A stretch of 45,565 nt of DNA from Heterodontus francisci (lineage: Eukaryota): the NCBI RefSeq assembly GCF_036365525.1, contig NW_027140453.1, positions 1,364,001 to 1,409,565 of the forward strand, given 5' to 3'. The notes below the pieces were generated by a model. That model saw only the letters and a program-made list of their open reading frames with translations. It was not told where the DNA came from and did no database searches. Made by a program: the position numbers and the translations under genes. Position 1 is the stretch's first letter; each line of letters opens with the position of its first letter. Below are positions 14,461 to 45,565 of this stretch, one piece after another.

Positions 14461-14799
14461 GTTGTGTCCTGAATAAGCAGGGGGCAGGCTGTTGTCTGTT
14501 TGACGGTCCTAGAGCGCTCTCTGCTGTCCCTGTGGAGAATGAAGATAGTGTCAGGAGATGAAACCTAAATATTTTTAGTGATCATTCCTTCCTGATATTT
14601 ACATCTTCTCAATTTGGGTCACATCCCCGTTAATCATTCATAGACAGACAGAAGGTTTTAGGGAACATAAGCAGGCTATTAGTGACATCTTTACCAGTGC
14701 CTCTATATTTATTCTCTCACTTTTATTCACACGGGTCCCTTCTTATTGTCACAAACACCATCGCCCTGCACAAAAATCAAGTCTCTGTACAGCGCAACT

Positions 14800-15040
14800 T
14801 TATCTCCCACAGGTAGTGGTGGGACTCTGGAGGACAATCTGTGAGTTCACATCTGGGAAAGAGATGGGTCGAAAATGACGCCAGGACACTCTGGATTATC
14901 GAGGAAGAAGGATGGAAGGGAGGAATGAAAGCGTCAAGGAGAGAAGGAAATTATAAAGTAAAGAAAATTATTAAGCAGCATTATGTTTCATAAAGTTCCT
15001 TATGGTGGGAGATGGTCATCAGACCCAGTAACAGATACAT
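14800..15040 (-). pseudogene. TRBV: TRBV relic: leader with dead donor; V body and RSS deleted
   Basis: Leader 15004-15040 (MYLLLGLMTISH) with donor ATAAGG; exon starts at 14852, DVNSQIVLQSPTT fused directly to post-RSS ACCTGTGG; 3' flank matches that of the V at 43192. Confidence 0.85.
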
Positions 15041-15279
15041 CTTTCACTGGACCTTTCCCTATTCATCAAGTCATCTTGACAAACCATTGAGGAAAGCAAG
15101 GTGGTGAGGGGCGTTTGGTCACGCCCCCTTCTCTCATTCAACCAATCGGAATTAGCATGGTTTAAATTCGCAATTGCTCTTTTTGTATTTGCCAATCAGA
15201 AACGCGGATCTCCACATCTGGATTTCCCAATTGGATACAAGAGCCTGAGCGAAACTGTCACATGTGGATGGCTCTTCAG

Positions 15280-16090
15280 ATGTAACAGGCTCGATGGGGC
15301 TGAATGGCCTCACCCATTTCCTATTTAACAGATTCGAGGGGCTGAATGGGCCTCCTCCTGTACCTGTGCAGACTGAGGGGGGAACTGAATTGGCCTCCTC
15401 TTGCTCCTGTGCAACAGGCTCAAAGGGGCTGAATGGCTTACTCCTGTTCATATTAATCGGCTCAAGGGGGACTAAGTACCCTTCTCCAATTCCTACTAAC
15501 AAGCTCTACATTGATCAATAACCTCCTCCTGTTTGTGCGCAATGAGGCAGGGGAGTAATTGGCCTCCTCATGTTCCTTTGTAAGAGGCTCCAAAAGACTG
15601 AGAGACCTCCTCCTGAATTCTTCATAAACAGTTTTCCAGGCAGTTGTGTGTTACTGGTCCTATAGGGCCCTCTTCTTGGAGAAATTCGCTGTGATGCATT
15701 TTGGCTGAAGGGATAGACAAAGGCAATATAGACTAAAAGGCAGATTTCGAAAGAGTTTGCAAGGAACAGTGGACCTGAGGCTGCATGTGCCTCGATCTTT
15801 GAAGGTGGCAGGGCATGTTGAGAGAGTGGTTAGTAAAGCAGATGGGATCCTGATCTTCATAAATGGAGGTATTGAGTCCAAAAGCAGTGAACCTTTATAA
15901 AGCTCTGGTTAGGCTCCAGCTGGAGTATTGCGTCCAGTTCTGGCCACCACACTTAAGGGAGAATGTGAGGCTCCTTATTAGGGTGCAGAGCATATTTACG
16001 AGATTTGCAGAATGATCTCCTCCTGTTTCTATGCAACGGGACAAAGGGGCTGAATGGCCTACTCCTCTTCCTTTGTTCCTAACAAAGAGA
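15280..16090 (+). mobile_element. Degenerate tandem repeats of a CR1-tail-like unit (GGGGCTGAATGGCCTCCTCCTG) flanking a CR1 fragment (~15680-16010)
   Basis: Repeated GGGGCTGAATGG..CTCCTG units; CR1-like LEYCVQFW coding at ~15920-15945. Confidence 0.7.
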
Positions 16091-16435
16091 GTTGTGTGTT
16101 TGATCATCTGAGTGAAAGAAGACACCGTGTTAGTGGATAAAACCCCAATCGTTTTTCTGATATTCTCTCCTGATAGTGAAAACCTCTCAGTGTGGTGCCA
16201 CCCTTCTTAATCTTTCATAGAAAGATAGAAAGCTTATCAGCACAGAAAGAGGCCAGACTCTTCGCCTCTGCACCTGTGCTCTCAATTTTATTCTCACCCG
16301 TCTATTCTTATTGTCAAAAATATGATAGCCCTGCATCAATTCAAGTGGAAATACCGCGCTATTGTATGTCCAACAGGTGTTTCCTGCTGCCTTTGGGGTT
16401 TTTGTTGAACTGCTCCATCTCTCTGAGTCACTGTG

Positions 16436-16889
16436 AAGACTCCAGGCACAGAAATACACGGCCGAGTGATTCTCCCGCAGGCTGGAGGACTCCAGGTTGA
16501 ACTGGGTGCCAGTCGGTCTCTCGGCAGTGAAACCGTCCACCTCCTTCTCTGGATTTTTGTGATTAGTACCCGTGGAGTAAAACATAACCTGAGGCTCCTT
16601 CCTCGGGTATTGTCTGTACCAGAACATGTTAAGGGTACTGCTCCCCTCCAAAGTGCACTTCAGTTCCACTTCCTCCCCCACAACTCTGGAGACAGAGGCA
16701 GGAGTCTGGAGGATAGTCTGCGAGTTCACACCTGGGAGAGAGTGGGGAAGAGGAAGAGGTCAGTAAACAGGGGATTTCTAGGAAATGAAAGGAAGAGGGA
16801 ATGAGTATAGGAAGGTTATTAGAGAAAACGTTGGTATTTCAGACTCACTCACAGTGCAAAAGGATTATCAGAGCCAATGACTGATACAT
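16436..16889 (-). CDS. TRBV: TCR beta V gene segment (TRBV30-like), intact: leader 16853-16889, V exon 16436-16731
   Basis: MYQSLALIILLH-C-VNSQTILQTP..LKC..WYRQ..YFCAWS; GTGAGT donor and CAG acceptor; perfect 23-RSS CACAGTG (16435-16429)-23-ACAAAAACC (16405-16397). Confidence 0.93.
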
Positions 16890-16964
16890 CTTCCCCTTGA
16901 AGCTGTTTAGAAATAAGCAAAGCAGCGAGAACCGGAGTGTAAGCCTTGTGAGGGTCCAAACCTG

Positions 16965-17060
16965 CTCTTTACAAATCATTGAGGAAAATATGAAGAGCAT
17001 GAGGAAGTGATGCAGTGTTGGACACGCCCCCTTCCAACACCCAACCAATCAGAATGGACG
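16965..17060 (-). promoter_or_regulatory. V promoter module conserved upstream of most V genes
   Basis: On +: TTTACAAATCATTG (minus TGTAAA; TATAAA in the copy near 41865), AGGAAGTGATGCA (ETS core), CACGCCC, CCAATCA. Related modules at ~26740, 34810, 36460, 38090, 40360, 41865, 43745. Confidence 0.65.
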
Positions 17061-17539
17061 TGGTTCCTTGTTATGGTTGAGTGACTGGATTAAGTGTTGT
17101 TAATATCCCCAACAAGGATGTATGTTGTTCAGTTTCTAATTTACTGATGAGAAATCTCCAATTGAACATATCCAGATCCCCAACGAACCTCATCGGCATT
17201 CCCACATTAGCCACGTGTAGATTTCCAATTTATAGACATCTGGATTCCAGTTTATCCACACCTTCATCTCCGAATAGCCAGATGTCGATGCCGTGTGTCT
17301 CCTGGCAAACGTTGTAAGCAACAGTGGCCTGAGGCAAATAGGTGCAATGCCACCTGTGTGGCACTGGGCTCCTTACCTATTCTACAGCAGGGCTATGCAC
17401 ATTACTGGGTCCTTGGCAAGTTTAAATTGCACTGGGTGTGCCTGTGCCTGAACCCATGTAACCTGGGCATCAGCCTAGGCCTCTGGCTTATTATCGCAGT
17501 GACATTGCAACTATGCCATCGTTATCCTTAGACCAGGGC

Positions 17540-19490: not shown

Positions 19491-21509
19491 GAGAAGTCTA
19501 GAACCAGGGGGCTCAATTTCACGACCACAGCGAGTAAGTTAAGGCCAATAGTGGAGATGCATTTAAGGGGGAGATTAGATCAGGACATGAGGGAGTAAGG
19601 AATAGAAGGAGGTGCTGATGGGCTGAGATGCAGAGAGATGGGAACAGGATTTTAAACCGTGGTGCGGAGTCAACTCCCCCTTGGCCCCTTTATTCCCTTC
19701 ACCCACTTGATTCTGGCTGTCACGTGGGACTAAGTCCTCTTAATTCAGACTCAGGCTGGGTGTTTGGGATATTGGGGTTACAGGAGAGCCACCCTCCACC
19801 TAATCCACCAGTTACGGTTAATGGCTTAGTACAAAGAGGAGGAAACTCAGTCCTTTCTTTAACTATCAAGTTACTTTATTCACGTTGTTGTACAATGGAA
19901 GAATAAGGCTTATACACTTGGTTAGACAAAAGCATGCAACTCAACTGGGTTATACAGTTAATAACAAAGCTAGCTAGAATTGATAAGCACACCCACCAGG
20001 TTCCTCTGACCTTTCCCTGACCTCGTCACAGAAAACAAACGATAATTCCCGGAAAGGGAAGAGCTGATGCTGGCCAGACGTTCTGATCTCTCTCTCTTTT
20101 ACGTCATCACCGCGTTGCTCACGCAGGGTCTTCCACTTCCACAATGGTTGGTCTCTGAAGTTTCTCGCTGGTTCTATGCCTGAGATTCTCCATACTTATT
20201 CTCTTTCTTATCTCTTCAAAACTGTGCTGTCTCTTTCCTGTTGGTTTAGGCCTGCTCACCTCGTTCGTATCTTCTCCTTATTGGCCCAGGCCCAAAGACC
20301 CCGGTATCACACCGTTTCCAAATAAGGCTCTATTCCTGTGATTTCTCCCTTGTCTGTCACATAAATTAATTAGTTCAAACTGGTTTTTACCAGCACAGGC
20401 CAGTGTCTGAGCTCAGGTTACTTTAGTTCATGTGCTATCCAGCAGTTTGTAACAGATTCTGTACTTCTTGCAGCCCATGGCCAAGGGATGATGTTGTTTA
20501 TTTTGGGTAACTGTTTCGAACAGCCAGACCAGGCTCGATTGATCGAATGACCTTGGTCAGTGCTGTATGATTCTATAACTATCTAAGACGCATCAAGGGG
20601 CTTATTTGTTTTAGGCTGAGAAAGATTTATTTTCCCTGTCTCCTAAACGAGAATTGAAGGGTTAAATTCTTGCCTGGGCCTAACTCCCAGATGCTTTGAA
20701 AGTTCTTCAAAAGACACCGAGTGTCTGAAAGACAAGTTGGTTAATAATTGTCAACAGTTGCTCAAAACCGCCAAATTAGGAATCTGTTCCAGTGAGAGAC
20801 CTATCTGGGGAGTTGTCTCGTATTTGCATTGTATGAATCATCAGGGGCATGTAGAATAGGGAGCTCTGTGCAACTCCTTGTCAGAATCTTCCGTCCATTC
20901 TTTCAACTGTATCATGAACCCATTTACCCTGCCTTGTAATCTGTTCTTAAAATGTAGAGGCTACCTCACGAAAAGAGCCTTATCACGTGGATGGAGCATT
21001 TTAATCATTAATATTGTATTGATATAATCTGAATCGAAGGAGAACAAGAAGATACAACAATATCAACAAAATAGCAAACCATGATATATCACTGATGGAA
21101 CTGCGAGATGTAAACAATGACGTTAGATATATGATAAACAACAGAGGGATGGATATACACTTAGACAGACAAGAGCCAGATAAATCGATCGATGACAAAT
21201 ATATATAGATGACAGAGTAAATAGATAAATAGATAAATAGAGATAAATAGAGATATGTATCGATAGCTGGAGGGATCGATAGAGCAATGGATGGATAGAC
21301 AAATGGAACAATAGAANNNNNNNNNNNNNNNNNNNNNNNNNNNNNNNNNNNNNNNNNNNNNNNNNNNNNNNNNNNNNNNNNNNNNNNNNNNNNNNNNNNN
21401 NNNNNNNNNNNNNNNNNNNNNNNNNNNNNNNNNNNNNNNNNNNNNNATTGAGAGATAGATAGATTGAGAGATAGATAGATAGATAGATCGATCGATATAG
21501 ACCCCAATC

Positions 21510-22870
21510 ATTGACCCACCTCACTGACCCCACTCACTGACCCCACTCACTGACCCCACTCACTGACACCACTCACTGACTCCACTCACTGACCCCACTC
21601 AGTGACCCCACACACTGACCCCACTCACTGACACCACTCACTGACTCCACTCACTGTCCTCTCTCACTGACTCCACTTACTGTCCCCACTCACGGACCCC
21701 ACTCAGTGACCCCACTCAGTGACCCCACTCAGTGACCCCACTCACTGACTCATCTCACTGACCCCACCCACTGACACCACTCACTGACTCCTCTCTTTGA
21801 CCCCAGTCACTGACACCACTGACTGACCCCACTCACTGTCTCCACTCACTGTCCCCACTCACTGACCCCACTGACTGACCCCGCTCACTGACTCCACTCA
21901 CCGACACCACTCACTGACTCCTCTCACTGACCCCACTCACTGAGTCCACTCACTGTCCACACTCACTGACCCCACTTACTGACCTCACTCACTGACTCCA
22001 CTGAGTGACTCCACTCACTGACTCCAGTCACTGACCACACGCACTGACCCCACTCACTAACCCCTGTCACTGACCCCACTCACTGACTACGCTCACTAAC
22101 CCCGCTCACTAACCCCGCTCACTGACTCCACTCACTGTCCCCGCCCACTGACTCCACTCACTGACCTCACTCACTGACTCCACTGAGTGACACCACTCAG
22201 TGACTCCACTCACTGACTCCACTCACTGACCCCACGCACTGACCCCGCTCACTAACCCCGCTCACTGACCCCACTTACTGATCCCACTCACTGACTCCCC
22301 ATTGACCCCGCTCACTAACCCCACTCACTAACCCCGCTCACTGACTCCACTGACTGTCCCCGCTCACTGTCCCCGCACACTGACCCCACTCACTGACCCC
22401 ACTCTTAGCATCCACTTACTGCCTCTGCTCACTGACTCCACTCATGGACTCCACTAACATCCTCCACTCACTGTCCCTGCTCATTAACCCCACTCACTGA
22501 CCTCACTCACTGACTTCAGTGAGTGACACAACTCAGTGACTCCACTCACTGACTCCACTTACTGATCCCACTCACTGACTCCCCACTGACCCTGCTCACT
22601 AACCCCACTCACTGACCCCACTTACTGATCCCACTCACTGACTCCCCACTAACCCCGCTCACTAACCCCGCTCACTAACCCCACTCACTGACTCCACTCA
22701 CAGACTCCACTCACTGCCTCCGCTCACTGACCCCGGTCACTGACCGCACTCACTGACCCCACTCACTGACCCCACTCACTGACCTCACTCACTGACTCAA
22801 CTGAGTGACACCACTCATTGACCCCACTCATAGATTCCACTCACTGACTCCACTCACTGACCCCACTCAA
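21510..22870. repeat. Minisatellite, 13-bp unit CACTGACCCCACT
   Basis: Directly visible degenerate tandem array, preceded by (GATA)n and an N-gap. Confidence 0.95.
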
Positions 22871-23310
22871 TCTCCCAGATCAATCCCTATAATAATCCTT
22901 CATTCTCGAGATCAATCCCTATAATAATCCTTAATTCTCCAGATCAATCCCGATAATAATCCCTCATTCTCCAGATCAATCCCTATAATAATCCTTCATT
23001 CTCCAGATCAATCCCGATAATAATCCCTCATTCTCCAGAGCAATCCCTATAATAATCCTTAATTCTCCAGATCAATCCCAATAATAATCCCTCATTCTCC
23101 AGATCAATCCATATAATAATCCTTCATTCTCCAGATCAATCCCAATAATAATCCCTCATTCTCCAGATCAATCCCTATAATAATCCTTCATTCTCCAGAT
23201 CAATCCCTATAATAATCCCTCATTCTCCAGATCAATCCCTATAATAATCCTTCATTCTCCAGATCAATCCCTAGAATAATCCTTCATTCTCCAGATCAAT
23301 CCCTGTAATA
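22871..23310. repeat. Minisatellite, 32-bp unit CTCCAGATCAATCCCTATAATAATCCTTCATT (~13 copies)
   Basis: Period 32 (e.g. CCAGATCA at 22971 and 23003); highly homogeneous. Confidence 0.95.
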
Positions 23311-23866
23311 TCCCCTTATTGTCTCTATCTCTGTCTCCCTCTCTGTCTCAGTCTCTTTAACTCTGTCTGTCGTTTTTGCTTTCTCTCACTAGATCTCTCT
23401 CTGTCACACACATACACTATCTTCCCTTCTCTAACAAAGTGGGTGTCCTTGTCCTGTTCATGTATATCAAGCTGGATCTGCAGACCTCCCGCTCTTTCCG
23501 TTTTCTCACTAAATCCTTTTCAAAGCCATTGTCCATTCCATGGTCCTGGAACCCCCTCTGCTGTCCCTGTGCAGAAGGTAAACACAGGGTCAGTGCATAA
23601 AAAATCCAGATTATTGTCATTGATTCCGGATAGTTACATTCTGAGATCTCGTGACATCCTTATTCATCGTTCATTGCACCCTCGCCAGTACCTGTAAATC
23701 TAAAATCTCACTACAATATTAACTCAGCTCTTTTTATTGTAATAAACACTTTCACTCTGCAAAAGGGAACAGCAGGTCGAGGCACCGAACGGTTTTACCC
23801 TCCACAGGTGTTTCCTGCTGCCTTTCGGGTTTTTGTTGAATTGCTCCATCTCTCTGAGTCACTGTG

Positions 23867-27569: not shown

Positions 27570-30500
27570 TTTGGATATACCGTTTTGGATACTGTTGGGG
27601 GGGGGACGACTTACCAGGGGTAAGCAATGGGGTACAGGTCTCTGGTGCAGAGTCTGTCCCTGTTGCTCAGAAGGGAAGGGGGAAGAGGAGCAGAGCATTA
27701 GACATTAGGGACTCCATAGTTAGGGGAACAGAGAGGAGGTTCTGTGGGAACGAGAGAGACTCACGGTTGGTGTGTTGCCTCCCAGGTGCCAGGGTTTGTG
27801 ATGTCTCGGATAGTGTTTTTGGGATCCTTAAGGGGTAGGGGGAGCAGCCCCAAGTCGTGGTCCACATAGGCACCAACGACATAGGTAGGAAGAGAGATGT
27901 GGATTTAAGGCAGAAATTCAGGGAGCTAGGGTGGAAGCTTCGAGCGAGAACAAACAGAGTTGTTATCTCTGGGTTCTTGCCCGTGCCACGTGCTAGCGAA
28001 GCGAGGAATAGGGAGAGAGAGGAGTTGAACACGTGGCTGCAGGGATGGTGTAGGAGGGAGGGTTTTGGTTTCCTGGATAATTGGGGCTCTTTCTGGGGTA
28101 GGTGGGACCTCTACAAACAGGATGGTCTTCACCTGAACCAGAGGGGTACCAATATCCTGGGGGGGAGATTTGCTAGTGATCTTCGGGGGGGTTTAAACTT
28201 ATTCAGCAGGGGGATGGGAACCTAAATTGTAGTTCAAGTGTGCAGGCTGTTGAAAGTAGTGAGGTAGGGGATAAGGTTACAGGGACGCAAGAGGGCACTG
28301 GCAAGCAAGAACTTGGTTTAAAGTGTGTCTACTTCAACGCCAGCAGCATCCGGAATAAGGTGGGTGAGCTTGCAGCATGGGTTGGTACCTGGGATCTCGA
28401 TGTTGTGGCCATTTCGGAGACATGGGTAGAGCAGGGACAGGAATGGATGCTGCAGGTTCCGGGATTTAGATCTTTCAGTAAGAACAGAGAAGATGGTAAA
28501 AGAGGGGAGTGGGGGTGGGGTGTGGCATTGTTAATCAAGGAGAGTATTACGGCGGCAGAAAGGACGTTTGAGGACTCGTCCACTGAGGTAGTATGGGCCG
28601 AGGTTAGATACAGGAGAGGAGAGGTCACCGTGTTGGGAGTTTTCTATGGACCTGTGGGGCGGCACAGTGGCACAGTGGTTAGCACTGCAGCCTCACAGCT
28701 CCAGGGACCCGGGTTTGATTCTGGGTACTGCCTATGTGCAGTTTGCAAGTTCTCCCTGTGTCTGCGTGGGTTTTCTCCGGGTGCTGCGGTTTCCTCCCAC
28801 AAGCCAAAAGACTTGCAGGTTGGTAGGTAAATTGGCCATTATAAATTGTCACTAGTATAGGTAGGTGGTAGGGAAATATAGGGACAGGTGGGGATGTTTG
28901 GTAGGAATATGGGATTAGTGTAGGATTGGTATAAATGGGTGGTTGATGGTCGGCACAGACTAGGTGGGCCGAAGGGCCTGTTTCAGTGCTGTATGTCTAA
29001 TCTAATCTAATCTAGACCTCCGAATAGTTCCAGAGATGTAGAGGAGAGGATAGCAAAGATGATTCTCGACAGCAGCGAGAGTAACAGGATAGTTGTTATG
29101 GGGGACTTAAACTTTCCAAATATTGACTGGAAATACCATAGTTTGAGTACTTTAGATGGGTCAGTTTTTGTCCAGTGTGTGCAGGAGGGTTTTCTGACAC
29201 AGTATGTAGACAGGCCAACCAGGGGCGATGCCGCATTGGATTTGGTACTGGGTAATGAACCCGGCCAGGTGTTAGATTTAGATGTAGGTGAGCACTTTGG
29301 TGATAGTGATCACAATTCGGTTAGGTTTACCTTAGCAATGGGCAGGGACAGGCATATACAGCAGGGCAAGAATTATAGCTGGGGGAAAGGAAATTATGAT
29401 GCGATTAGGCAAGATTTAGGATGCGTAGGATGGGGAAGGAAACTGCAGGGGATGGGCACAATCGAAATGTGGAGCTTATTCAAGGAGCAGCTACTGCGTG
29501 TCCTTGATAAGTATGTACCTGTCAGGCAGGGAGGAAGTTGTCGAGCGAGGGAGCCGTGGTTTACTAAAGAAGTTGAAGCGCTTGTCAAGAGGAAGAAGAA
29601 GGCTTATGTTAGGATGAGACGTGAAGGCTCAGTTTGGGCGCTTGAGAGTTACAAGCTAGCCAGGAAGGATCGAAAGGGAGAGCTTGGAAGAGCGAGGAGA
29701 GGACACGAGAAGTCATTGGCGGATAGGATCAAGGAAAACCCTAAGGCTTTCTATAGGTATATCAGGAATAAAAGAATGACTAGAGTTAGATTAGGGCCAA
29801 TCAAGAATAGTAGTGGGAAGTTGTGTGTGGAATCAGAGGAGATAGGGGTTGCGTTAAATGAATATTTAGCATCAGTATTTACAGTAGAGAAAGAAAATGT
29901 TGTCGAGGAGAATACTGAGATACAGACTACTAGGCTAGATGGGATTGAGGTTCACAAGGAGGAGGTGTTAGCAATTTTGGAAAGTGTGAAAATAGATAAG
30001 TCCCCTGGGCCAGATGAGATTTATCCTAGGATTCTCTGGGAAGCCAGGGAGGAGATTGCAGAGCCTTTGTCCTTGATCTTTATGTCGTCATTGTTGACAG
30101 GAAAAGTGTCGGAAGACTGGAGGATAGCAAATGTTGTCCCCTTGTTCAGGAAGGGGAGTAGAGACAGCCCTGGTAATTATAGACCTGTGAGCCTTACTTC
30201 GGTTGTGGGTAAAATGTTGGAAAAGGTTATAAGAGATAGGATTTATAATCATCTTGAAAAGAATAAGTTCATCAGCGATAGTCAGCACGGTTTTGTGAAG
30301 GGTAGGTCGTGCCTCACAAACCTTATTGAGTTTTTTGAGATGGTGACCAAACAGGTGGATGAGGGTAAAGCAGTGGATGTGGTGTATATGGATTTCAGTA
30401 AGGCGTTTGGTAAGGTTCCCCACGGTAGGCTATTGCAGAAAATACGGAAGTATGGGATTGAAGGTGATTTAGTGATTTGGATCAGAAATTGGCTCGCTGA

Positions 30501-31540
30501 AAGAAGACAGAGGGTGGTGGTTGATGGTAAATGTTCATCCTGGAGTTTAGTTACTAGTGGTGTACCGCAAGGATCTGTTTGGGGGCCACTGCTGTTTGTC
30601 ATTTTTATAAATGACCTGGATGAGGGTGTAGAAGGGTGTGTTAGTAAATTTGTGGATGACACGAAGGTCGGTGGAGTTGTGGATATTGCCGAAGGATGTT
30701 GTTGGTTACAGATGGACATAGATAGGCTGCAGAGCTGGGCTGAGAGATGGAAAATGGAGTTAAATGCGGAAAAGTGTGAGGTGATTCACTTTGGAAGGAG
30801 TAACAGGAATGCAGAGTACTGGGCTAATGGGAAGATTCTTGGTAGTGTCGATGAGCAGAGAGATCTTGGTGTCCAGGTACATAAATCCCTGAAAGTTGCC
30901 ACCCAGGTTAATAGGGCTGTTAAGAAGGCATACGGTGTGTTAGTTTTTATTAGTAGGGGGATCGAGTTTCGGAGCCACGAGGTCATGCTGCAGCTGTACA
31001 AAACTCTGGTGCGGCCGCACCTGGAGTATTGCGTGCAGTTCTGGTCACCGTATTATAGGAAGGATGTGGAAGCTTTGGAAAGGGTACAGAGGAGATTTAC
31101 TAGGTTGTTGCCTGGTGTGGAGGGAAGGTCTTATGAGGAAAGGCTGAGGGACTTGAGGTTGTTTTCGTTGGAGAGAAGGAGGAGGAGAGGTGACTTAATA
31201 GAGACATATAAGATAATCAGAGGATTAGATAGGTTGGATAGTGAGAGTCTTTTTCCTCAGATGGTGATGGCAAACACGAGGGAACATAGCTTTAAGTTGA
31301 GGGGTGATAGATATAGGACAGATGTCAGAGGTAGTTTCTTTACTCAGAGAGTAGTAGGGGCGTGGAACGCCCTGCCTGCAACAGTAGTAGACTCGCCAAC
31401 TTTAAGGGCATTTAAGTGGTCATTGGATAGACATATGGATGAAAATGGTATAGTTTAGGTCAGATGGTTTCACAGGTCGCCGCAACATCGAGGGCCGAAG
31501 CGCCTGGACTGCGCTGTAATGTTCTAAGTTCTGTGTTCTA
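27570..31540 (+). mobile_element. Near full-length CR1 LINE: ORF1 SGNH-esterase region + ORF2 (endonuclease-RT), split by a SINE
   Basis: ORF1 motifs GDSIVRG, HIGTNDIG, DGLHLN (with an internal stop); ORF2 starts CVYFNA.SIRNK..ISETW and resumes after the SINE (ORF 29059..31458); RT motif altered to FVDD. Confidence 0.95.
28654..29014 (+). mobile_element. tRNA-derived SINE (HE1-like) nested in CR1 ORF2
   Basis: Pol III A-box TGGCACAGTGG and B-box-like GGTTTGATTC; CR1-type 3' end GGGCCGAAGGGCCTGTT + (CTAAT)n; GACCT duplicated at 28649-28653 and 29015-29019. Confidence 0.85.
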
Positions 31541-31571
31541 TTACTGGGTCCATAACCATCAGGGAGGCTCA

Positions 31572-31790
31572 AATCCACTGCTGCCAACTGCTGGTGGAAA
31601 ATGAGCACTGAGATTCAATCTACTGCTGCCCCCTGCCGGTGGAAGATGAGCACAGCGATTCAATCTACTGTTGCCCCCTGTCGGGGGAAAATGAGGACAG
31701 ACATTCAATCTACTGCTGCCCCTGCTGGTGGAAGATGAACACTGACATTCAATCTACTGCTGCCCCCTGCCGGTGGATGATGAGCACTGA
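31572..31790 (-). promoter_or_regulatory. Tandem array of 5 x 45-bp units with CTCF-like motifs, directly 3' of a V RSS
   Basis: Minus cores CCGGCAGGGGGCAG (x2), CCGACAGGGGGCAA, CCAGCAGTTGGCAG, CCAGCAGGGGCAG; same unit length and core as 12780-13070. Confidence 0.72.
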
Positions 31791-31849: not shown

Positions 31850-32616
31850 CGATACTGCAAGCACAGAAATAGACAGCGGTGTGAGATGGAGCAGCGTTTC
31901 TCAGTGCCAAAGTAAACAGTGCATTGCTGGATCTGACTGCATTAAATGACTCAGACGTGTAATTTGTAACAGACCCTTCTGTCGCAGAATAGAACAGAGA
32001 TTCCAGTGCCCTGTCTGGTTGTTGTCTGTACCAGTACATTAATGTACAGCCAGTATTGGTCAGCGTGCATCTGAGTGTTGTTGAATCTCCTGCTGCAATC
32101 GATAGGATAGAGGGCGACTGTTCCACATAGGAGGCGAGTATTCCTGTGGGATGGAACATCGATTAAATTATTATTTCAGTCAATAATGGATTGGAGCAGG
32201 AGCTGCATTGCAAGAAAGAAAGGGCTGACATTAATATAGCGCCGTTCAGGACCTCAAGACATCAGAAAGGCTTTGCAACCAATGTAGTTACTCCCTCAGT
32301 ACTGCCTCTGCGACAGTGCAGCACTCCCTCAGTACTGCCTCTGCGATAGTGCAGCACTCCCTCAGTACTGCCTCTGCGACAGTGCAGCACTCCCTCAATA
32401 CTGCCTCTGCGATAGTGCAGCACTCCCTCAGCCCTGACACCTGGGGTGTTACTTTTGACTTTGAGCTCAAGTGTTGCGGAGTGAGACTCAGACACAGGAG
32501 TGTTCCAGACAGAATCACCGCTGACATTACAATACATTATTCTACACAGTTTCTGACTTTCACTTACGTGGAAAGAATGCAGCCATCAAGATTAAACAGA
32601 GAACTTCATGCAACAT
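31850..32616 (-). CDS. TRBV: Divergent TCR beta-type V gene segment, intact: leader 32568-32616, V exon 31850-32143
   Basis: MLHEVLCLILMAAFFP-R-ILASYVEQSP..LRCTLTNTGCTLMYWYRQ..HTAVYFCACSI; GTAAGT donor and CAG acceptor; 23-RSS CACAGTG (31849-31843)-23-GCAAGAACC (31819-31811). Confidence 0.9.
32288..32430. repeat. 33-bp tandem repeat (CACTCCCTCAGTACTGCCTCTGCGACAGTGCAG) x~4 in the V intron
   Basis: Directly visible. Confidence 0.9.
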
Positions 32617-33270: not shown

Positions 33271-33859
33271 GCTGAATGGGAGTTAAAGGGTTAAATTGTT
33301 CACTGGTCTGAACTGCTGGTTTCTTTGAAGAACACATCAAATGCGACTCGAGTCTGAGATGAAAGTTGGTAAACAGGTTTCAGCAGCTTCTGATCTCGCC
33401 GTCAGGAGGCAGATGTCCCAGTCCCGGAGATGAAGGTATCTGGAGAGGGGTCTCACTTTTGAACAGTGTGAAACAGCGCTCAGATGGTTAAGAGTTCCGA
33501 GCTGAGTTAGTTCCTATACATTGTGGGGTTGTTTGCCTACGTGTAGTGAGGGCTAGAGAGAGGGAGAGGTTTGGAGGGAGAGGGATGGAGAGAGGGAGAG
33601 AGAGGAAGAGAGAGGGATGGAGAGAGAGGGATGGAGAGAGGGAGAGAGAGGGATGGAGAGAGGGATCGACAGGACGTTACTGATCAGTCATGATCTCATT
33701 GAAGGGCGGAGTGTTTTCGAGGTGATGAATGAACTCCTTGTGTTCCCAGGTCGCTGTTAAAGTGTGTTCCAGACTCTGATGTTTATCATGGTCCTGCAGC
33801 GCACTCTGCTGTCCCTTTGGAGAAAGAAAACACCGTGACATCCAACGACAACGGATGTA

Positions 33860-33890
<31 letters not shown>

Positions 33891-34727: not shown

Positions 34728-34918
34728 CTTTCACTTCAACTTGTTCTCTTAATAGACACAGGAGTGAGATCAGGAGCTTAGACTCTTGTGAGGCTCCAAA
34801 TCAACTCTTTACAAATCATTGGGAGGAACATGAAGAGCATTAGGAAGTGATACAATGTTGGAGACGCCCATTCACCCAGGTCAACAAATCAGAATTGAAT
34901 TGGCTGCCAATCTGCTTC

Positions 34919-34951
<33 letters not shown>

Positions 34952-35897
34952 ATCTCTATCTCAGTTTACCTTCCGCTTTCTTGCGCTCTCTCTCTGTCTC
35001 TCTCTCTTTTGCTCTCCTCATGTGTCTAGGGTTATGTCTCCCACTCTCTTCCTTTCTCAGACTCTCTCTCCCTCTCTATCTCAGTCTATCTTCGCTCAAT
35101 TTCTCTCTCTGACACTCCCTCTCTCCTCATGTATCTAAGGTTATGTCTCCCATTCTCTCCTTCTCTCTGACTCTCCCTCTCTCATACTCTTGTTATCTCT
35201 TTAGTTATTTCCCTGTCTCTGTCTCTCTCTAGATCTATCTCCCTATCTGTCACAGGCTCTTTATCGCAGTCTCTCTTTCTCTCCGTCTCTCTCTCAGTGT
35301 CTCTCTCTCTCTCTCTCATTTGTGTCTCTTGCTGTCTCACTGTCTTTGCCTCTTTCTGCGTCTCCCTCTCTGTCTCAGTCTCTTTAACTCTGTCCGTCGA
35401 TTTTTCTCTCTCTCTCTAGATCTCGCTCTCTCTTTCACACACATACACTCACTTTCTCTCTCTAAAGGAGTAGGTGTCCTTGTCCTGTTGATGTTTATCA
35501 AGCTGGATCTACATGATCTCCTGCTCTCTTAGTTTTCTCACTAAATCCTTCTCAAAGCCATTGTCCGGTCCATGGTGCTGGATCCCCCTCTGCTGTCCCT
35601 TTGGAGAAGGTAAACACAGGGTCAGTGTATGAATACCCAGATTATTGTCATTGATTCCTGATAGTTACATTCTGAGATCTCGTGACATCCTTATTAATCG
35701 TTCATTGCACCCTCGGCAGTTCCTGTAAATCTAGTGTGTCACTACAACCATAACTCAACTCTTTTTATTGTAACAAACACTTTCACTCTGCATAAGGAAA
35801 CAACAGGTCGAGGCATCGAACGGTTTTACCCTCCACAGGTGTTTCCTGCTGCCTTTGGGGTTTTTGTTGAACTGCTCCATCTCTCTGAGTCACTGTG

Positions 35898-36382
35898 ATC
35901 TCTCCAGGCACAGAAATACACGGCCGAGTGATTCTCCCGCAGGCTGGAGGACTCCAGATTGAACTCGGAGTCTGTCGGTCTCTCGGCGGTGAAACCCTCC
36001 ACCGTCCCCTCTGAGTTCACCCTTTGTGCAGTTAGGGAGTAAAACATCAGCTGCGGCTCCTTCCCCGGGTATTGTCTGTACCAGTACATGTAAGGGTTAC
36101 TGGTGCCATCCACGGTGCATTTCAGCTTCACCTGCTCCTCAGACAATTTGGAGACAGAGGCGGGAGTCTGGTGGATAGTCTGTGAGTTCACATCTGGGAA
36201 AGAGACAGGGAGAGGAGGAGATCAGTAAACAGGGAAATTCAGTCCAGTGGGGAGAGAGAAAGAGAGAGAAGGAGAGAACGAAATAAATAAAACCATATCC
36301 TAAAGAAATGTTAAGTAGAATTATTGTTTCAATAAAATTCCTTACGGTGAAACAGGGTGATCAGAGTCAGTAACAGATACAT
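35898..36382 (-). CDS. TRBV: TCR beta V gene segment (TRBV30-like), intact: leader 36346-36382, V exon 35898-36193
   Basis: MYLLLTLITLFH-H-VNSQTIHQTP..CTVDGTSNPYMYWYRQ..YFCAWR; GTAAGG donor; perfect 23-RSS 35859-35897. Confidence 0.94.
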
Positions 36383-37603
36383 CTTTTACTTTAAGCTGCC
36401 TTCTGAATCAGCAAAGGGGAGAGAGCAGGAGTGATGAGTGTTGTTAATAACCAACCCACTCTTTACAAATCATTGGGAGGAACAGGGAGAGCATTAGGAA
36501 GTGATGCAGAGATGGTGACGTTCATTTCCCACATCAACAAATGAGAATCGAGTTGGTTGCCAATGTCCCACTTTCTCTCTCTCTCTCTGTCTCTCCCTGT
36601 CCTTTACTTGTGATGCTCCTTTCTTCCTCTCTGTCTCTCTTCTGTGCCTCCCTATATGTCTCAGTCTGTTTATTTCAGTCTCTCTCTCTCACAGATACAC
36701 ACACATTAGGTCTCTCTCTCTTTCTTTGTTTGTCTCTCTGTCTCTCTCGCTGTGTGTGTGTCTCTCTCTCTCTTCTCTCTCTCTAAGGATGTGGATTTCC
36801 TTCTCCTGGTCATGTATATCAACCTGGAGGACTGTATGTTCTCCCACTGTTTCAGTTTTCCTGTGAACTCCTTCTCAAAAGCCATTGTACATCACATGGT
36901 CCAAGAGCGTCCTCAGCTGTCCCTGTGGTGAAAATATACACAGTGTCAGTCTATAACAGCCCCAGTCCTTTTATTGTTATTCATTCCTGATAGTTACAAT
37001 CCTGAGATCACGGGATATTCTTATTCAATGAGCTGGAAGATGAATGGGCACGGATACAAAGCTGTGCATGTGTGTGCGTGTGTTTTTCACTCGCTCTGTC
37101 TTTAGTTAACTGTCTCCCTCTGTTTCACTGCTCTCTGTCTTTCTCTCCCTGTCTCTTTCTGTGTGTGTGTCTGTCTGTCTCCCAATCTGTCTCACTCTCT
37201 TCCTCTGTGTTTTTTTTGCTTTTCTCTCGCACTTCCTTCTTCCCCCTCTCTGTCCTCCTCTCTCTCCTCTGTCTGTCTCTCTGTCTCAGTCGCTTTCCCT
37301 CAGACGCTTTCTCTCAGTCTCGCTCTCAGACTCTCGCTCTCTGTCTCTGTCTCTCTCTCTCTGTCTCTCTCTCACTCTCTGTCTCTCTCTGTCTCTCAGT
37401 CTTTCTTTCCCTCAGTATCTCTATCTCTCTCTCTCTGTCCCTCTCTCACTCTCTGTCTCTCTCGGTCTCTCAGTCTCTCTCTCTCTGTCCCTCTCTCACT
37501 CTCTGTCTCTCTCGGTCTCTCAGTCTCTCTCTCTCAGTCTCTCTCACTGTTTCTCTGTCTCAGTCTCTCTGTCTCAGTCTCTTCCTCTGTGTTTTTTGTT
37601 TTT

Positions 37604-39170: not shown

Positions 39171-39814
39171 TCCTTATTTATTTATACCCCAGAAACGCAA
39201 TGAGCTCCAATATAGTGACCTAAACCATCCAGAACCTAAACCATCCAGCATCTGCGGTACCTTGTGTTCAGTTCACCAGACTGTAACCGGGATGTATTTC
39301 TATAATTATCAGGAGAGGTTCATATACAAGTTTCAAAGTCCCTATTGAAACATCATCAATAATCTGATACTTATCATGGTCCTACACCGCCCTCTGCTGT
39401 CCCTTTGGATAAAGACAACACTGTCAGTGAATAAAACACAACAGTGTCTGTCTGCCAACCAGCTTTCTATCAACCTATCTACCGACCTATCTGATCTTCA
39501 CTTCACACATTAAACCCTTTCATAATCTTTCTAAGAACTATGAATGTTCACCCTTCAGTCTTCTCCTTTCTGGAGCAAAGATGTTTAAACTATCTTTGTT
39601 CCGATATCATTCCTGCAAAGTCTATTTCACAATTCCCCTGTGCTTCGATATCTAACCTCTCACTTTCTGTTTAAATCCGCCCTGTCTTCTTGTGAAAAAC
39701 ACTTTTCCAATGCCAAAAACACCCAACAGGACGCAGCACCGCCTGGTTTTATCTGAAACAGGTGTTTCCTGCTGCCTTTGGAGTTTTTGTTGAACTGCTC
39801 CATCTCTCACTGTG

Positions 39815-40278
39815 AAGACTCCAGGCACAGAAATACACGGCCGAGTGATTCTCCCGCAGGCTGGAGGACTCCAGTTTGAACTCGTACTTATTAAGTTTCT
39901 CGGTGGTAAAACCGTCCACCGTCCCCTCTGGATCCACATAGTTAGCAGTACTGGAGTAAAACATCAACAGCGGCTCCTTCCCCGGGTATTGTCTGTACCA
40001 GTACATGGAGATGCTACCAGTACATGGAGATGCGACTTCACAGTGCACATCAGTCCCACTCCTTTTGCGGGAAATCTGGAGACAGTGGCGGTAATCTGGT
40101 GGATAGTCTGTGAGTTCACATCTGGGAGAGAGATGGAGAGAGGAGGAGATCAGTAAACAGGGAATTTCTGGGAATGAAAGGAAGACAGGGAGAGGAGAGG
40201 AAAGTTATTAACGATAATCTTTGTATTTCACACTCACTTACAATGAAACAGGATTATCAGACACAGTAACTGATACAT
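39815..40278 (-). pseudogene. TRBV: TRBV30-like pseudogene: frameshift and 17-bp RSS spacer
   Basis: Leader 40242-40278; exon 39815-40121 with a 19-bp tandem duplication (39996-40033); heptamer 39808-39814, spacer only 17 nt, nonamer 39782-39790. Confidence 0.9.
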
Positions 40279-40465
40279 CTTTCACTGTAACTTGTTCTCT
40301 TAATGGACACAGGAGTGAAAGCCGGAGCCTAGAGTCTTGTGAGGGTCCAATTCCACTCTTTACAAATCATTGGGAGGAAGATGAAGAGCATTAGGAAGTG
40401 ATACAATGTTGGAGACGCCCATTCCCCCAGGTCAACAAATCACAATCAAATTGGTTGCCAATCAC

Positions 40466-40524
<59 letters not shown>

Positions 40525-41316
40525 CACCTTCCGCTCTCTTGCTCTCACTCTGTCTGTCTCGCTCTCTCCTCATGTGTCTGGGGTTATGTCTCCCACTCTC
40601 TCCTTCTCTCTGACTCTCCCTCTCTCTTACTCTTACTGTCTCATTAGTTCTTTCTCTGTCTCTGTCTCTCTCTAGCTCTGCCTCCCTATCTGTCTCAGGC
40701 TCTTTATCTCAGTCTCTCTTTCTCTCCTTCTCTCTCTGTCCCTCTCTCTCTCTCACTCTCATTATGTCTCTCTTGCTGCCTCGCTGTCTTTGTCTCTATC
40801 TCTGTCTCCCTCTCTGTCTCAGTCTCTTTAATTCTATCTGTCGTTTTTCCTCTCTCTCACTAGATCTCTCTGTCACACACACACACACTCTTACTCTCTC
40901 TAACAAAATGGTGTCCTTGTCCTGTTCATGTGTATCAAGCTGGATCTGCATGATCTCCTGCTCTTTCAGTTTTCTCACGAAATCCTTCTCAAAGCCATTA
41001 TCCGTTCCATGGTCCTGGATCCACCTCTGCTGTCCCTGTGGAGAAGGTAAACACTGTGTCAGTGCATAAAAACCTAGATTATTGTCATTGATTCCTGATA
41101 ATTACATTCTGAGATCTCGTGACATCTTTATTAATCGCAGTACCTGCAAATCTAGTGTGTCACTACAATAATGTCTCAACACTTTTTATTGTAATACTTT
41201 CACTCTGCATAAGGGAACAGGAGGTCGAGGCACCGAACGGTTTTACCCCCCCCACAGGTGTTTCCTGCTGCCTTTGGGGTTATTGTTGAACTGCTCCACC
41301 TTTCTGAGTTACTGTG

Positions 41317-41785: not shown

Positions 41786-43191
41786 CTTTTACTTTAAGCT
41801 GCCTTCTGAATCTGCAAAGGGGAGAGAGCAGGAGTGATCAGTGTTGTCAATAACCAACCCACTCTTTATAAATCATTGGGAGGAACAGGGAGAGCATTAG
41901 GAAGTGATGCAGAGATGGTGACACTTATTTTCAAGATCAACAAATGAGAATCGAGTTGTAAATGTCCCAATTTCTCTCTCAGTCTCTCTCTCTTTTTTTC
42001 TCTCTCTCTCTAAGGGGGTGATTGTCCTTCTCCTGGTCATGTATATCAACCTGGAGGACTGTATGATCTCCCACTGTTTCAGTTTTCCTATGAACTCCTT
42101 CTCAAAAGCCATTGTGCATCACATGGTCCTAGAGCGTCCTCAGCTATCCCTGTGGTGAAAATATACACAGTGTCAGTCTATAACAGCCCCAGTCCTTTTA
42201 TTGTTATTCTTTCCTGACAGTTACTATCCTGAGATCACGGGATATTCTTATTCAATGAGCTGGAAGATGAATAGACACGGATACATAGCAGTGCATGTGT
42301 GTGCGTGTATTTTTCACTCGCTCTGTCTTTAGATCACTGTCCCCCTCTGTTTTACTGCTCTCTGTCTTTCTGTCCCTGTCTCTTTCTTTGTGTGTTTGAG
42401 TGCATGTGTGTATGTGTGTGTCTGTTTCCCAATCTGTTTCAGTCTCTTCCTCTGTCTTTTTTTTTTGTTTTCTCTCTGGTTCTTTCTTGGCCCCCCTCTC
42501 TGTCCTCCTCCCTCTCCTCTCTCTCCTCCTCTCAGTCTCAATCGCTCTGTCTCCGTCTCTCTGTCTCAGTCTCTTTGTCTCAGTCTCTCTCTCAACCTTT
42601 CTCTCTCAGTCTCTCTGTCTCTGTCAGTTTTCCTCTCAATCTTGTTCTCACCCTCTCTCACACACTCGGTCTCCCTCTCTTTGTCTCTCTCGCTGTGTGT
42701 GTGTGTATCCCTCTCTCAGGTGATGAATGTCCTTCTCCTGTCACTGTGTATGAAGCTCGAGGGCTGCATGACCTCTGCCTCTTTCTGTTTTCCGATTAAA
42801 TGTTTTCTCGTCCATTGTGTATTAATGGTCCTGGAGCGCCCTCTGTTAACCCTATAGAGGAAGAAAACTCAGTGTCAGTGCAGAAGAACTCACGTCGTTT
42901 TATTGTTAATCTTTCCTGATAGTTACAACCTCAGATCTGGTGTTATCCTTGTTAATCATTCAGAGAGAGATCGAAACTTTTACCGCACAGATGAGGTCCG
43001 TTCATTGTCTCTTCGTCAGTGCCCGTCCATCTATTATCACACTTTTATTCTCACTTGTCTTCTTATCGTCACAAAAACAATCGCCCTGCACAAAAACCAA
43101 GTGGCAGCACCGAGCACCTTTATCCTCCACAGGTGTTTCCTGCTGCCTTTGGGGTTTTTGTTGAACTGCTCCATCTCTCTGAGTCACTGTG

Positions 43192-43665
43192 AAGACTCCA
43201 GGCACAGAAGTACACGGCCGAGTGATTCTCCCGCAGGTTGGAGGACTCCAGGTTGAACTCGGAGTTACTTGGTCTCTCGGCGGTAAAACCATCCACCTCT
43301 TCTGGAGATACGAGATTGGCACCCGTGGAGTAAAACATAAACTGCGGCTCCTTCCCCGGGTATTGTCTGTACCAGAACATGTCAGGGTTACTGCTGCCCT
43401 GCACGGTGCATTTCAGCTTCACCTGCTCCCCAGAATATTTGAAGACAGCGGCGGGAGTCTGGTGGATAGTCTGTGAGTTCACATCTGGGAAAGAGAAAGG
43501 GAGAGGAGGAGATCAATAAACAGGGACATTCAGTCCAGTGGGGAGAAAGAGGAGAGAGAGAGAAAATCAATGAAAAATAAAACGAAAGAAATGTTAAGTA
43601 GAATTATTGTTTCAATAAAATGCCTTACGGTGAAACAGGGTGGTCAAAGTCAGTAACAGATACAT
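43192..43665 (-). CDS. TRBV: TCR beta V gene segment (TRBV30-like), intact: leader 43629-43665, V exon 43192-43484
   Basis: MYLLLTLTTLFH-H-VNSQTIHQTP..CTVQGSSNPDMFWYRQ..YFCAWS; perfect 23-RSS 43153-43191. Confidence 0.94.
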
Positions 43666-44079
43666 ATTTTACTTTAAGCTGCCCTCTGAATCAGCAAAGG
43701 GGAGAGAGAAGGAGTGATGAGTGTTGTCAATAGCCAACCCACTCTTTACAAATCATTGGGAGGAACAGGAAGAGCATTAGGAAGTGATGCATAGATGGTG
43801 ACGCCCAGGTAAACATGTCAGAGTGGAGGAGGTTGTCAATGTCTCTCTCTCTATCTCAATCCGCCTTCCTCTCTCTTTCTTACTCTTCGTTCCTCACTCT
43901 CTCTCTCTCTGCATGTATCGAGATTTATGTCTCCCACTCTTTCAATCTCTTTCTCTCTATATCTGTGTGTGTGTGCGTATTTTCCTCTCTCTGTCTCCCT
44001 CTGTCCCGTTCATTTACGTTGCGTTTTTCCTCTCTATGTCTCCCTGATTCACCCTCTCTGTCTCTGTGTTTCATGGGCT

Positions 44080-44870
44080 GATGTATTGAGAAATAGAGGG
44101 CACTTATTGAAGGTAATTGGCAAAAGATCCAAAGGTGAACTGAGGAAACTTTTTGACGCAGTGAGTGGTGAGGATCTGGAATGCACTATCTGAGAGTGCG
44201 GGGGAGGCAGGTTCAATCGTGGCTTTCAAAAGGAAATTTGGATAATTATCTGAAGGGAAAATGTGCAGTGTTATTTAGAAAGGGCAGGAGGAGTGGGACT
44301 AGCTACAGAGACCAAGTACAGCAACAGGGTGACAGCATTGTGGAACATCCTGCATTCAGGCTGCAAGTGTGACCCTGAGATTCCGGTTAGTGGATACTTT
44401 TATTTCCCATTCCCACTCCCACCCTGACCTCTCTTTCCTCGAACTCCTTCTCTACTCCAATGAAGCTCAACAGAAACTCGAAGAACAGCCCCTCATCTTT
44501 CAATTGGACACTTTACAGCTTTCTGGACTCAACAGCCAATTTAACCATTTCTGATCATAACCACTGCTCCGGTTTATTTGGACAGAGGCTTGTTGGTAAT
44601 GATTGTGTTTCTGCCAGTTCTGCCTCTTCTAGACCCATCTTTTGTTCTTTACTTGACCCATTAACTTCCCCTTTGTCTTGCACCAGCCTCAGTTTTGTTA
44701 TTCAATCTCTTTTGCATTTCTCCCATTGCCCGTCTCTCTGACTTTGTGCTGCTTAAAAGTTAATAGATCTCTAAATCCTTCCAGTTCAGTTGAAAGATCT
44801 ACGACCTGATATGCTAATGTTTTTCTCCCTCGACAGAGGCTGTCTGATCTGATTAACATTTCCATCCTGA
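44080..44870 (+). mobile_element. Duplicate of the CR1 + Penelope-like remnant at 38390-39170
   Basis: KLEEQPLIFQLDTLQLSGLN; collinear with the first copy at an offset of ~5.7 kb. Confidence 0.7.
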
Positions 44871-45565
44871 TTTATTTATAACCCAGAAACGCAATGAGCA
44901 CCAATATAGTGACAGAGGACCCAGAACCTAAACCATCCAGCATCTGCGGGACCTTGTGTTCAGTTCACCAGACTGTAAACGGGATGTAGTCCTTTAATTA
45001 TCAGGAGCGGTTCATGGACAAGTTTCAAAGTCCCGATTGAAACATCATCAATAATCTGATACTAATCACGGTCCTACACCGCCCTCTGCTGTCCCTTTGG
45101 AGAAAGACAACACTGTCAGTGAATAAACCACAACAGTGTCTATATATCTATTTACCTATCTATCTCTCTTCCGATCGATCTACCTACCTATCTACCTATC
45201 CATCTACCCATTTATCTATCTAGTTATCTATCTATCTTCCTACTTATCTACCTATCTNNNNNNNNNNNNNNNNNNNNNNNNNNNNNNNNNNNNNNNNNNN
45301 NNNNNNNNNNNNNNNNNNNNNNNNNNNNNNNNNNNNNNNNNNNNNNNNNNNNNNNNNNNNNNNNNNNNNNNNNNNNNNNNNNNNNNNNNNNNNNNNNNNN
45401 NNNNNNNNNNNNNNNNNNNNNNNNNNNNNNNNNNNNNNCTTATCTACCTACCTAACTGCCGATCTATCTACCTGTCTATCTATCAACCTATTTATATATC
45501 TACCCACCTATCTATCTACCTAGCTTTCTACCTAACTATTTATCTACCTACATATCAACCTACCT

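What the first reader, a model, noticed from the sequence alone, without database searches (positions are those of the whole stretch)
14513..45092. One CTCF-like motif in the 3' flank module of most V genes, all oriented toward D-J
Seen on minus: ACAGCAGAGAGCGCT (~14513), ACAGCAGAGGGGGTT (~23550), ACAGCAGAGTGCACT (~25534), ACAGCAGAGTGCGCT (~33798), ACAGCAGAGGGGGAT (~35582), ACAGCTGAGGACGCT (~36906), ACAGCAGAGGGCGGT (39386, 45078), ACAGCAGAGGTGGAT (~41019), TTAACAGAGGGCGCT (~42834). The inferred ancestor ACAGCAGAGGGCGCT is close to canonical CCAGCAGAGGGCGCT. They lie ~280-640 bp behind the RSS and stay recognisable between otherwise unrelated flank types. Established: V-associated CBEs raise V usage during RAG scanning in mouse Igh. 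Inference: the same logic in sharks, with motif quality possibly tuning V usage.
Basis: partly seen in the sequence, partly recalled or inferred. Interest (0 to 1): 0.75.

Follow-up and report, generated by a model that had tools for sequence, protein, structure and literature searches.

The report
Fading CTCF sites in shark TCR-beta
Behind most copies of a duplicated shark T-cell-receptor V gene lies the same short DNA motif, likely an old binding site for the genome-folding protein CTCF that has weakened in about four of five copies and that starts at a splice site joined in RNA contigs for one copy type, so it is probably a passenger of gene duplication rather than a dial that tunes V-gene use.

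Summary
All ten 15-mers are there, on the minus strand, and D-J-C lies on that side. The locus is a multi-cluster TCR-beta, not Igh. The window's TRBV30-like V genes lie 3' of C, inverted, so they would join that D by inversion, which linear RAG scanning cannot do. The motif is one ancestral element copied with the V unit (115 copies examined, 7 lineages). The lineage consensus is a strong CTCF match (18 bits, recalled matrix), but only 22 of 115 copies reach 13 bits, 21 of them from one lineage, often behind V genes with a broken RSS. The 14 lineage-fixed changes fall at random with respect to CTCF score (P=0.55). The motif starts at a branch-point/pyrimidine/AG acceptor kept in 111 of 115 copies. 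RNA contigs of one sample splice unrearranged V transcripts into it for one lineage; no such joint was seen for the strong lineage. Best reading: a mostly decayed CTCF site, placed like mouse CBE3 beside Trbv31, overlapping a germline-transcript splice acceptor. Stronger CTCF candidates are two 45-bp arrays in the window. The scan noted CTCF motifs and such arrays before on other DNA of this genome.

The parts
14512..14530 (-). Motif copy, lineage F, 11.9 bits; behind an internally deleted V relic
23549..23567 (-). Motif copy, lineage C, 7.4 bits; 300 bp behind RSS of V23866
25533..25551 (-). Motif copy, lineage E, 11.2 bits; behind V26207 (stop codon in V)
33797..33815 (-). Motif copy, lineage E, 11.9 bits; 457 bp behind RSS of intact V34271
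35581..35599 (-). Motif copy, lineage C, 8.5 bits; its first base is the G of the acceptor AG, the rest is the start of the spliced exon
35599..35829 (-). 231-nt GT-AG intron of unrearranged V transcripts: donor about 30 nt behind the RSS nonamer, branch-point-like CTGAC, pyrimidine tract, AG; one AATAAA inside
   Evidence: joint in runs X2 and X3; boundaries
35830..36382 (-). Intact TRBV30-like V gene: leader 36346-36382, V exon from 36193, 23-RSS from 35897, open tail to the donor
   Evidence: family
36905..36923 (-). Motif copy, lineage B, 8.7 bits; orphan, upstream V has no 3' end or RSS
39385..39403 (-). Motif copy, lineage D, 18.1 bits; behind a broken V whose RSS spacer is 6 nt short; no splice joint seen
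41018..41036 (-). Motif copy, lineage C, 4.8 bits; behind V41316 (stop codon in V)
42132..42150 (-).
42834..42852 (-). Motif copy, lineage A, 5.9 bits; 340 bp behind RSS of intact V43191
45077..45095 (-). Motif copy, lineage D, 18.1 bits; its V lies outside the window
16108..16135 (-). Homologous branch point, pyrimidine tract and AG behind intact V16435, with no motif after it
31572..31790 (-). 45-bp tandem array of CTCF-type motifs (4.9 copies, up to 19.0 bits) starting about 70 bp behind the heptamer of V31849, another V family
12780..13065 (-). 45-bp tandem array of CTCF-type motifs (6.4 copies, up to 19.0 bits, upstream TGCAG in some units) at the D-J-proximal end of the inverted V block

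Best explanation
The motif is a paralogous element in the 3' flank of a tandemly multiplied, inverted TRBV30-like V gene, likely descended from one CTCF site that faced the D-J-C and is now weak in most copies, and it starts at a 3' splice site that RNA contigs show joined for one lineage. Shown: common descent, scores, position, orientation, the acceptor and one joint. Inferred: the ancestor bound CTCF; after duplication a site per V was not needed, so five of seven lineages (A, B, C, E, F) lost 6-12 bits; the D lineage (about 1 copy in 5) would still stop cohesin coming from the D-J-C side. Any such effect would work by looping or insulation, as for mouse CBE3, not by pausing a scanning RAG, because the join to the nearest D is an inversion. 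The main anchors of the block are more likely the 45-bp arrays. The splice into the motif would give a sterile leader-V transcript predicted to encode 152 aa instead of 134 aa, and is likely a side use.
For: Ancestor 18.2-18.8 bits, about 6e-4 by chance in such a flank. 22 of 115 copies reach 13 bits: 21 of lineage D (20 binned D plus one mis-binned as C) and 1 of G; median 8.7. The 14 lineage-fixed changes cost 49.2 bits against 48.0 +/- 10.6 for random placement, P=0.55; 31 within-lineage alleles cost 2.48 bits each against 2.89, P=0.24; information-rich columns 0.81 identical against 0.88 for the others. Of 14 D copies with an RSS found, 4 have an intact V and 7 a shortened RSS spacer; weak lineages A and E have 6 of 9 and 10 of 18 intact. 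The V16435 type lacks the motif in 5 of 5 printed flanks, of 6 found. Architecture: D, 13 J and C on plus, window V genes on minus 3' of C. Acceptor AG in 111 of 115 copies picked by the exon side alone. GT-AG joint at exactly this AG in runs X2 and X3; leader-intron joints in X1 and X5 show that spliced RNA is in this set of runs.
Against: 83 of 115 copies still pass p<1e-4, so weak binding is possible. The block from -12 to +27 stays 70-85% identical across all 7 lineages while the flanks fall to 44-48%, which points to some past or present constraint; its best-kept part (+19 to +27) lies outside the CTCF 19-mer and is unexplained. The column-by-column test has little power: it shows no signal in the arrays either, and array family 2 does not spare its score. 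The matrix is recalled, and no binding data exist here. The joint comes from one sample of a relative-like organism (organism B, contigs only, RNA status a guess by the tool), and unspliced contigs cross the acceptor in X1 and X2. No GT-AG joint into the D-lineage acceptor was listed in 4 runs and one X3 contig reads through it. The matching donor GT is present in only 14 of 81 V tails, 18 counting shifted ones.
Confidence: 0.55

Rival explanations
1. The block is kept as a splice acceptor and exon start for germline V transcripts; the CTCF match is incidental or a by-product.
For: AG in 111 of 115 copies and in all 7 lineage consensuses, T at -10 invariant in 83 of 83 unique copies; joint at this AG; acceptor kept without the motif in 4 of 5 printed V16435-type flanks; best-kept stretch lies outside the CTCF 19-mer.
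Against: Donor GT in only 14-18 of 81 V tails; no joint for lineage D; among A, B, C the acceptor is no more alike (0.67) than the flanks; an 18-bit ancestor is unlikely by chance; I saw no codon periodicity in the per-column changes (read by eye).
Confidence: 0.2
2. One reading: each V carries a working CTCF site whose graded strength tunes how often that V is used.
For: Strong ancestor; 83 of 115 copies at p<1e-4; all face their own D-J-C; the locus has a polar CTCF landscape, 17 of 23 other strong sites near a V being on that V's strand (not independent); mouse Tcrb V CBEs face the D-J-C (PMC5859386, PMC10772921, passages).
Against: Random placement of changes; strong copies mostly behind broken V genes; inversional geometry excludes scanning for the nearest D; the closest mouse element lowers usage of the inverted V; an intact V type lacks the motif.
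Confidence: 0.15
3. The 40-bp block binds another factor, or persists as the shared island at which the V units recombine with each other, so neither CTCF nor splicing is what keeps it.
For: Positions +19 to +27 are the most conserved (0.85-0.93); at least one copy has an E-type upstream side and a C-type downstream side joined at the block (C407:1173833).
Against: No factor identified; exchange at the block does not explain why it survived in the first place or why its consensus fits CTCF.
Confidence: 0.1

Closest known systems
Mouse Tcrb CBE3 between E-beta and Trbv31 (PMC10772921; bioRxiv 10.1101/2024.10.13.618029; passages read)
   Same: CTCF-type motif on the RSS side of an inverted TRBV30/Trbv31-type V that lies 3' of C, facing back toward D-J (orientation of CBE3 inferred from 'convergent with V CBEs').
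   Different: Mouse has one V and one bound site; here the V and its flank are multiplied to hundreds of copies in about 21 clusters and most motifs are weak. Homology to CBE3 is positional only; no sequence comparison was possible. The family-2 array sits closer to the CBE3 position.
Mouse Tcrb V-region CBEs such as the Trbv1 3'CBE (same papers; PMC5859386)
   Same: Site 3' of a V-beta gene, same strand as the V, facing the D-J-C.
   Different: Those V genes are upstream and join by deletion, and binding is shown; here inversion, no binding data, and an overlapping splice acceptor.
RSS-associated CBEs of proximal mouse Igh VH genes
   Same: V-linked motif oriented toward D-J.
   Different: Different locus, 280 to over 1000 bp from the RSS, not on a deletional scanning path to the nearest D, and weak in most copies.
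Germline (sterile) V transcripts of antigen-receptor loci (recalled; RNA of unrearranged V segments is mentioned in the passages)
   Same: Leader-V transcript that keeps the RSS.
   Different: Here a second intron behind the RSS joins a downstream exon that begins with the motif; one search listed no paper on such an exon.

Membership tests
CTCF-binding element (CBE) | Match to the CTCF core motif | tested here: inconclusive
   22 of 115 at p<1e-5, 83 of 115 at p<1e-4; ancestor and lineage D 18 bits (recalled matrix)
CTCF-binding element (CBE) | CTCF and cohesin occupancy in vivo | not testable with these tools
   No ChIP or CUT&RUN data reachable
CTCF-binding element (CBE) | Selection sparing the motif score | tested here: not met
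   49.2 bits lost against 48.0 +/- 10.6 random, P=0.55; within-lineage P=0.24; test power limited
CTCF-binding element (CBE) | Upstream TGCAG motif for zinc fingers 9-11 (optional feature, recalled) | tested here: not met
   Absent at the 4 strong module copies in the 445-kb region; present at family-2 arrays and three other sites
Igh-type RSS-associated scanning CBE | V joins the D by deletion with convergent RSSs, on the RAG scanning path | tested here: not met
   V RSS and nearest D 5' RSS share orientation; a deletional partner D exists only about 350 kb away, past two clusters
Igh-type RSS-associated scanning CBE | Site immediately behind the RSS | tested here: not met
   Median 299-545 bp for A, C, D, E and 1056 bp for B; none within 1.5 kb for F, G
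Igh-type RSS-associated scanning CBE | Raises usage of its V | not testable with these tools
   Contig depths cannot rank genes; strong copies not enriched behind intact V genes
Tcrb CBE3-like element | Lies on the RSS side of the inverted V 3' of C and faces D-J | tested here: met
Tcrb CBE3-like element | Insulates the enhancer and restrains the inverted V | not testable with these tools
   Needs deletion or reporter work
Spliceosomal 3' splice site | Branch point, pyrimidine tract and AG | tested here: met
   AG in 111 of 115; tract in all lineage consensuses; CTGAC branch-like motif in A, B, C, D, F, altered in E and G
Spliceosomal 3' splice site | Used in RNA (GT-AG joint) | tested here: inconclusive

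The most novel reading that the evidence does not exclude
The CBE3-Trbv31 unit (an inverted V-beta behind C with a CTCF barrier on its RSS side) dates back to cartilaginous fish. In this shark the unit was multiplied hundreds of times across about 21 V-D-J-C clusters; the per-gene barrier was let decay, which would free the inverted V genes from insulation, while 45-bp CTCF minisatellites took over as inward-facing anchors around each cluster, and the decayed site was reused as the exon start of a spliced germline transcript predicted to encode a secreted single V domain.
Probability: 0.15. Interest if true: 0.7.

Novelty: new variant of a known kind. Interest (0 to 1): 0.35.

Why it matters
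As a working per-V dial the finding does not hold up, which removes an attractive but weak claim. What remains is useful: a series of more than 100 paralogous CTCF motifs from 18 bits down to below zero, behind near-identical V genes, is a ready natural experiment on whether a V-flanking CBE matters for inversional V(D)J joining. It also suggests that the mouse arrangement of a CBE beside the inverted V-beta may be very old.

Tried and rejected
D-segment pattern guessed from memory found nothing on the TRB contigs (48 matches elsewhere); a mistyped D pattern gave 0; the D was found by scanning fetched DNA. Motif as a D segment or a 12-RSS: rejected, no heptamer abuts it and it was not picked up by the RSS scans. 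Motif as part of a dispersed repeat: rejected, the 40 scored of 224 candidates and the first 100 listed of 198 matches all lie on contigs that hold this V family, none on C1-C406. Coding exon of another gene: reading frames close within about 20 codons (for lineage C; others read by eye). Correlation of column identity with information content: no signal for modules or arrays, so not discriminating; in that call the two array families were not separated, which one search corrected. One D copy was mis-binned as C, which biases the within-lineage test slightly toward conservation. The V reading-frame caller left many genes undetermined. The look-up of sequencing runs listed no holder on record as RNA. 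No cover at 39232-39327 is not evidence. Literature searches listed no paper on the genomic layout or CTCF sites of a shark TRB locus; subscription papers are not in the library, so older shark TCR-beta work was not seen. No supplements were read.
Full report
1. The observation. All ten 15-mers are exact, minus-strand matches at the stated places, one being off by a base. Scored with a CTCF matrix recalled from memory (JASPAR MA0139.1), the twins at 39386 and 45078 reach 18.1 bits; the other eight reach 4.8-11.9 bits; 7 of 10 pass p<1e-4. An eleventh copy at 42132-42150 scores 0.3 bits.

2. The locus. The V genes end in CAWS and carry 23-spacer RSSs. Their best single-domain matches among solved structures are TCR beta chains, including Mel5 (that Mel5 uses TRBV30 is recalled), and three relatives were found in Chiloscyllium. 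In 445 kb of contig C407 around the window there are two plus-strand D-J sets, each with 13 J; the nearer one (D at 1,281.6 kb) is followed by a TCR-beta C exon near 1,300.6 kb. The window's V genes (1,378-1,407 kb) lie 3' of that C on the minus strand. An exact D-RSS pattern gives 21 matches on 6 contigs, 9 forward and 12 reverse, and an exact V-RSS pattern 163 matches, 68 forward and 95 reverse. So this is a multi-cluster TCR-beta locus with an expanded inverted V block. 'Toward D-J' is true for the nearest cluster but follows from the V strand. The V RSS and the D 5' RSS share one orientation, so the join would be an inversion. PMC10772921 (12 of 43 passages seen) states that RAG scanning cannot conduct such joins.

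3. The copies. A profile of the exon side alone found 115 copies in 845 kb (the 445-kb stretch plus 40 stretches of 10 kb chosen around RSS hits). Median score is 8.7 bits; 22 of 115 reach 13 bits, 21 from lineage D and 1 from G; 83 of 115 pass p<1e-4. The 14 changes fixed in the seven lineages cost 49.2 bits, against 48.0 +/- 10.6 when placed at random (P=0.55). The 31 alleles within lineages cost 2.48 bits each against 2.89 (P=0.24). Information-rich columns are 0.81 identical, the others 0.88. Lineages A, B and C are 0.71 and 0.67 identical in the flanks and 0.74 in the motif, so their flanks are related; across all seven lineages the block from -12 to +27 is 0.70-0.85 identical against 0.44-0.48 outside, and the best-kept part, +19 to +27, lies beyond the CTCF 19-mer. 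Of 22 copies binned D, 14 had an RSS within 1.5 kb: 4 with an intact V, 7 with a shortened spacer; weak lineages A and E had 6 of 9 and 10 of 18 intact (crude caller). The V16435 type, an intact V at the D-J-proximal end of the block, lacks the motif in the 5 flanks printed of 6 found; I read this as a deletion of about 25 bases.

4. The splice site. Every copy begins right after a pyrimidine tract and, in 109 of 115, an AG; 2 more have the AG two bases earlier and 4 have lost it. Most lineages have a CTGAC branch-like word about 22 bases upstream. Laying four runs on 35480-36540 gave a joint that skips 35599-35829 with GT-AG ends in X2 and X3, which are one sample of organism B; leader-intron joints appeared in X1 and X5; unspliced contigs cross the acceptor in X1 and X2. 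The spliced form would encode 152 aa against 134 aa unspliced, with a hydrophilic tail (predicted). Against a general role: no GT-AG joint into the D-lineage acceptor at 39402 was listed in four runs and one X3 contig reads through it, and the matching donor GT is in 14 of 81 V tails, 18 with shifted ones. All runs are assembled contigs whose RNA status is the tool's guess.

5. Stronger CTCF candidates. The window holds two 45-bp arrays, 31572-31790 and 12780-13065, with units up to 19 bits. In the 445-kb stretch 71 sites reach 13 bits where 8.5 are expected from composition; most belong to such arrays, up to 22.8 bits. One family follows the RSS of another V family, the other sits at the D-J-proximal end of each inverted block and has the upstream TGCAG. 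An exact unit pattern has 209 matches; the first 100 listed are all on TRB contigs. Family 1 loses 2.14 bits per change against 3.11 random, family 2 loses 3.86 against 3.12; units are not independent. Earlier notes of the scan describe similar arrays and V-linked motifs on other DNA of this genome; the look-up near this place was empty.

6. Mechanism. Shown: descent from one element, scores, geometry, acceptor, one joint. Inferred: the ancestor was a CTCF site on the RSS side of a single inverted V, facing D-J, as CBE3 lies between E-beta and Trbv31 in mouse. Deleting CBE3 raised Trbv31 usage about 2-fold (bioRxiv 10.1101/2024.10.13.618029, 12 of 17 passages seen), so such a site restrains rather than boosts the inverted V. 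After multiplication one site per V was likely not needed and most decayed. D copies would still act as one-way cohesin barriers.

7. Known and new. V-linked CBEs facing D-J are known for mouse Igh and Tcrb (PMC5859386, 12 of 18 passages seen). Membership in the Igh scanning class fails on geometry and distance. The positional likeness to CBE3 holds; homology and binding are untested. Six searches listed no paper on a shark TRB layout, its CTCF sites, or this downstream exon; other papers in those lists were seen as listings only. Verdict: a real but mostly decayed element, a new variant of a known kind, interest 0.35.

Noticed in passing
G000 contigs C407, C761, C779, C1317, C1675, C2233: At least 21 TCR-beta D segments in both orientations; the two clusters examined have upstream V genes, one D, 13 J, and a block of inverted TRBV30-like V genes 3' of them. 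Two neighbouring clusters on C407 are near-copies 167 kb apart.
   Followed up: partly
window 31572-31790 and 12780-13065; C407:1175809-1176349, 1226407-1226767, 1348607-1348877, 1504228-1504546, 1161996-1162266, 1332446-1332715: Two related families of 45-bp CTCF-motif minisatellites, on the strand of the neighbouring V, so that they face inward around each D-J-C.
   Followed up: partly
G000:C407:1254735 and 1087149 (+); 1308182 and 1137669 (-): Single strong CTCF motifs 27 kb 5' of each D (20.3 bits) and 3' of the J-C region (18.3 bits), facing each other across D-J-C.
   Followed up: no
G000:C407:1231069, 1235645, 1240234 (+): 13.7-bit CTCF cores with an upstream TGCAG motif, 1.4 kb behind three upstream V genes.
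   Followed up: no
window, all CAWS-type V genes, e.g. 35830-35897: The V reading frame stays open through the RSS and about 24 codons beyond; a Chiloscyllium gene model (P0002) reads through a nearly identical RSS. In one search contigs cover the RSS and its 3' flank in X1, X2, X3 and X5.
   Followed up: partly
window 39780-39815: A V lineage with a 6-nt deletion in the RSS spacer has been copied at least 7 times together with the strongest motif type.
   Followed up: partly
G000:C407:1173833: A module with an E-type upstream side and a C-type downstream side, suggesting unequal crossing-over at the conserved block.
   Followed up: no
window 3430-6090, 8687-9799, 29011-31458: Long ORFs that look like reverse-transcriptase frames of LINE elements (family by eye, not searched).
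   Followed up: no
window 21500-23310 and 32290-32431: Satellite arrays of period 13/26/39 and 32, and a 33-bp repeat inside the leader intron of V31849.
   Followed up: no
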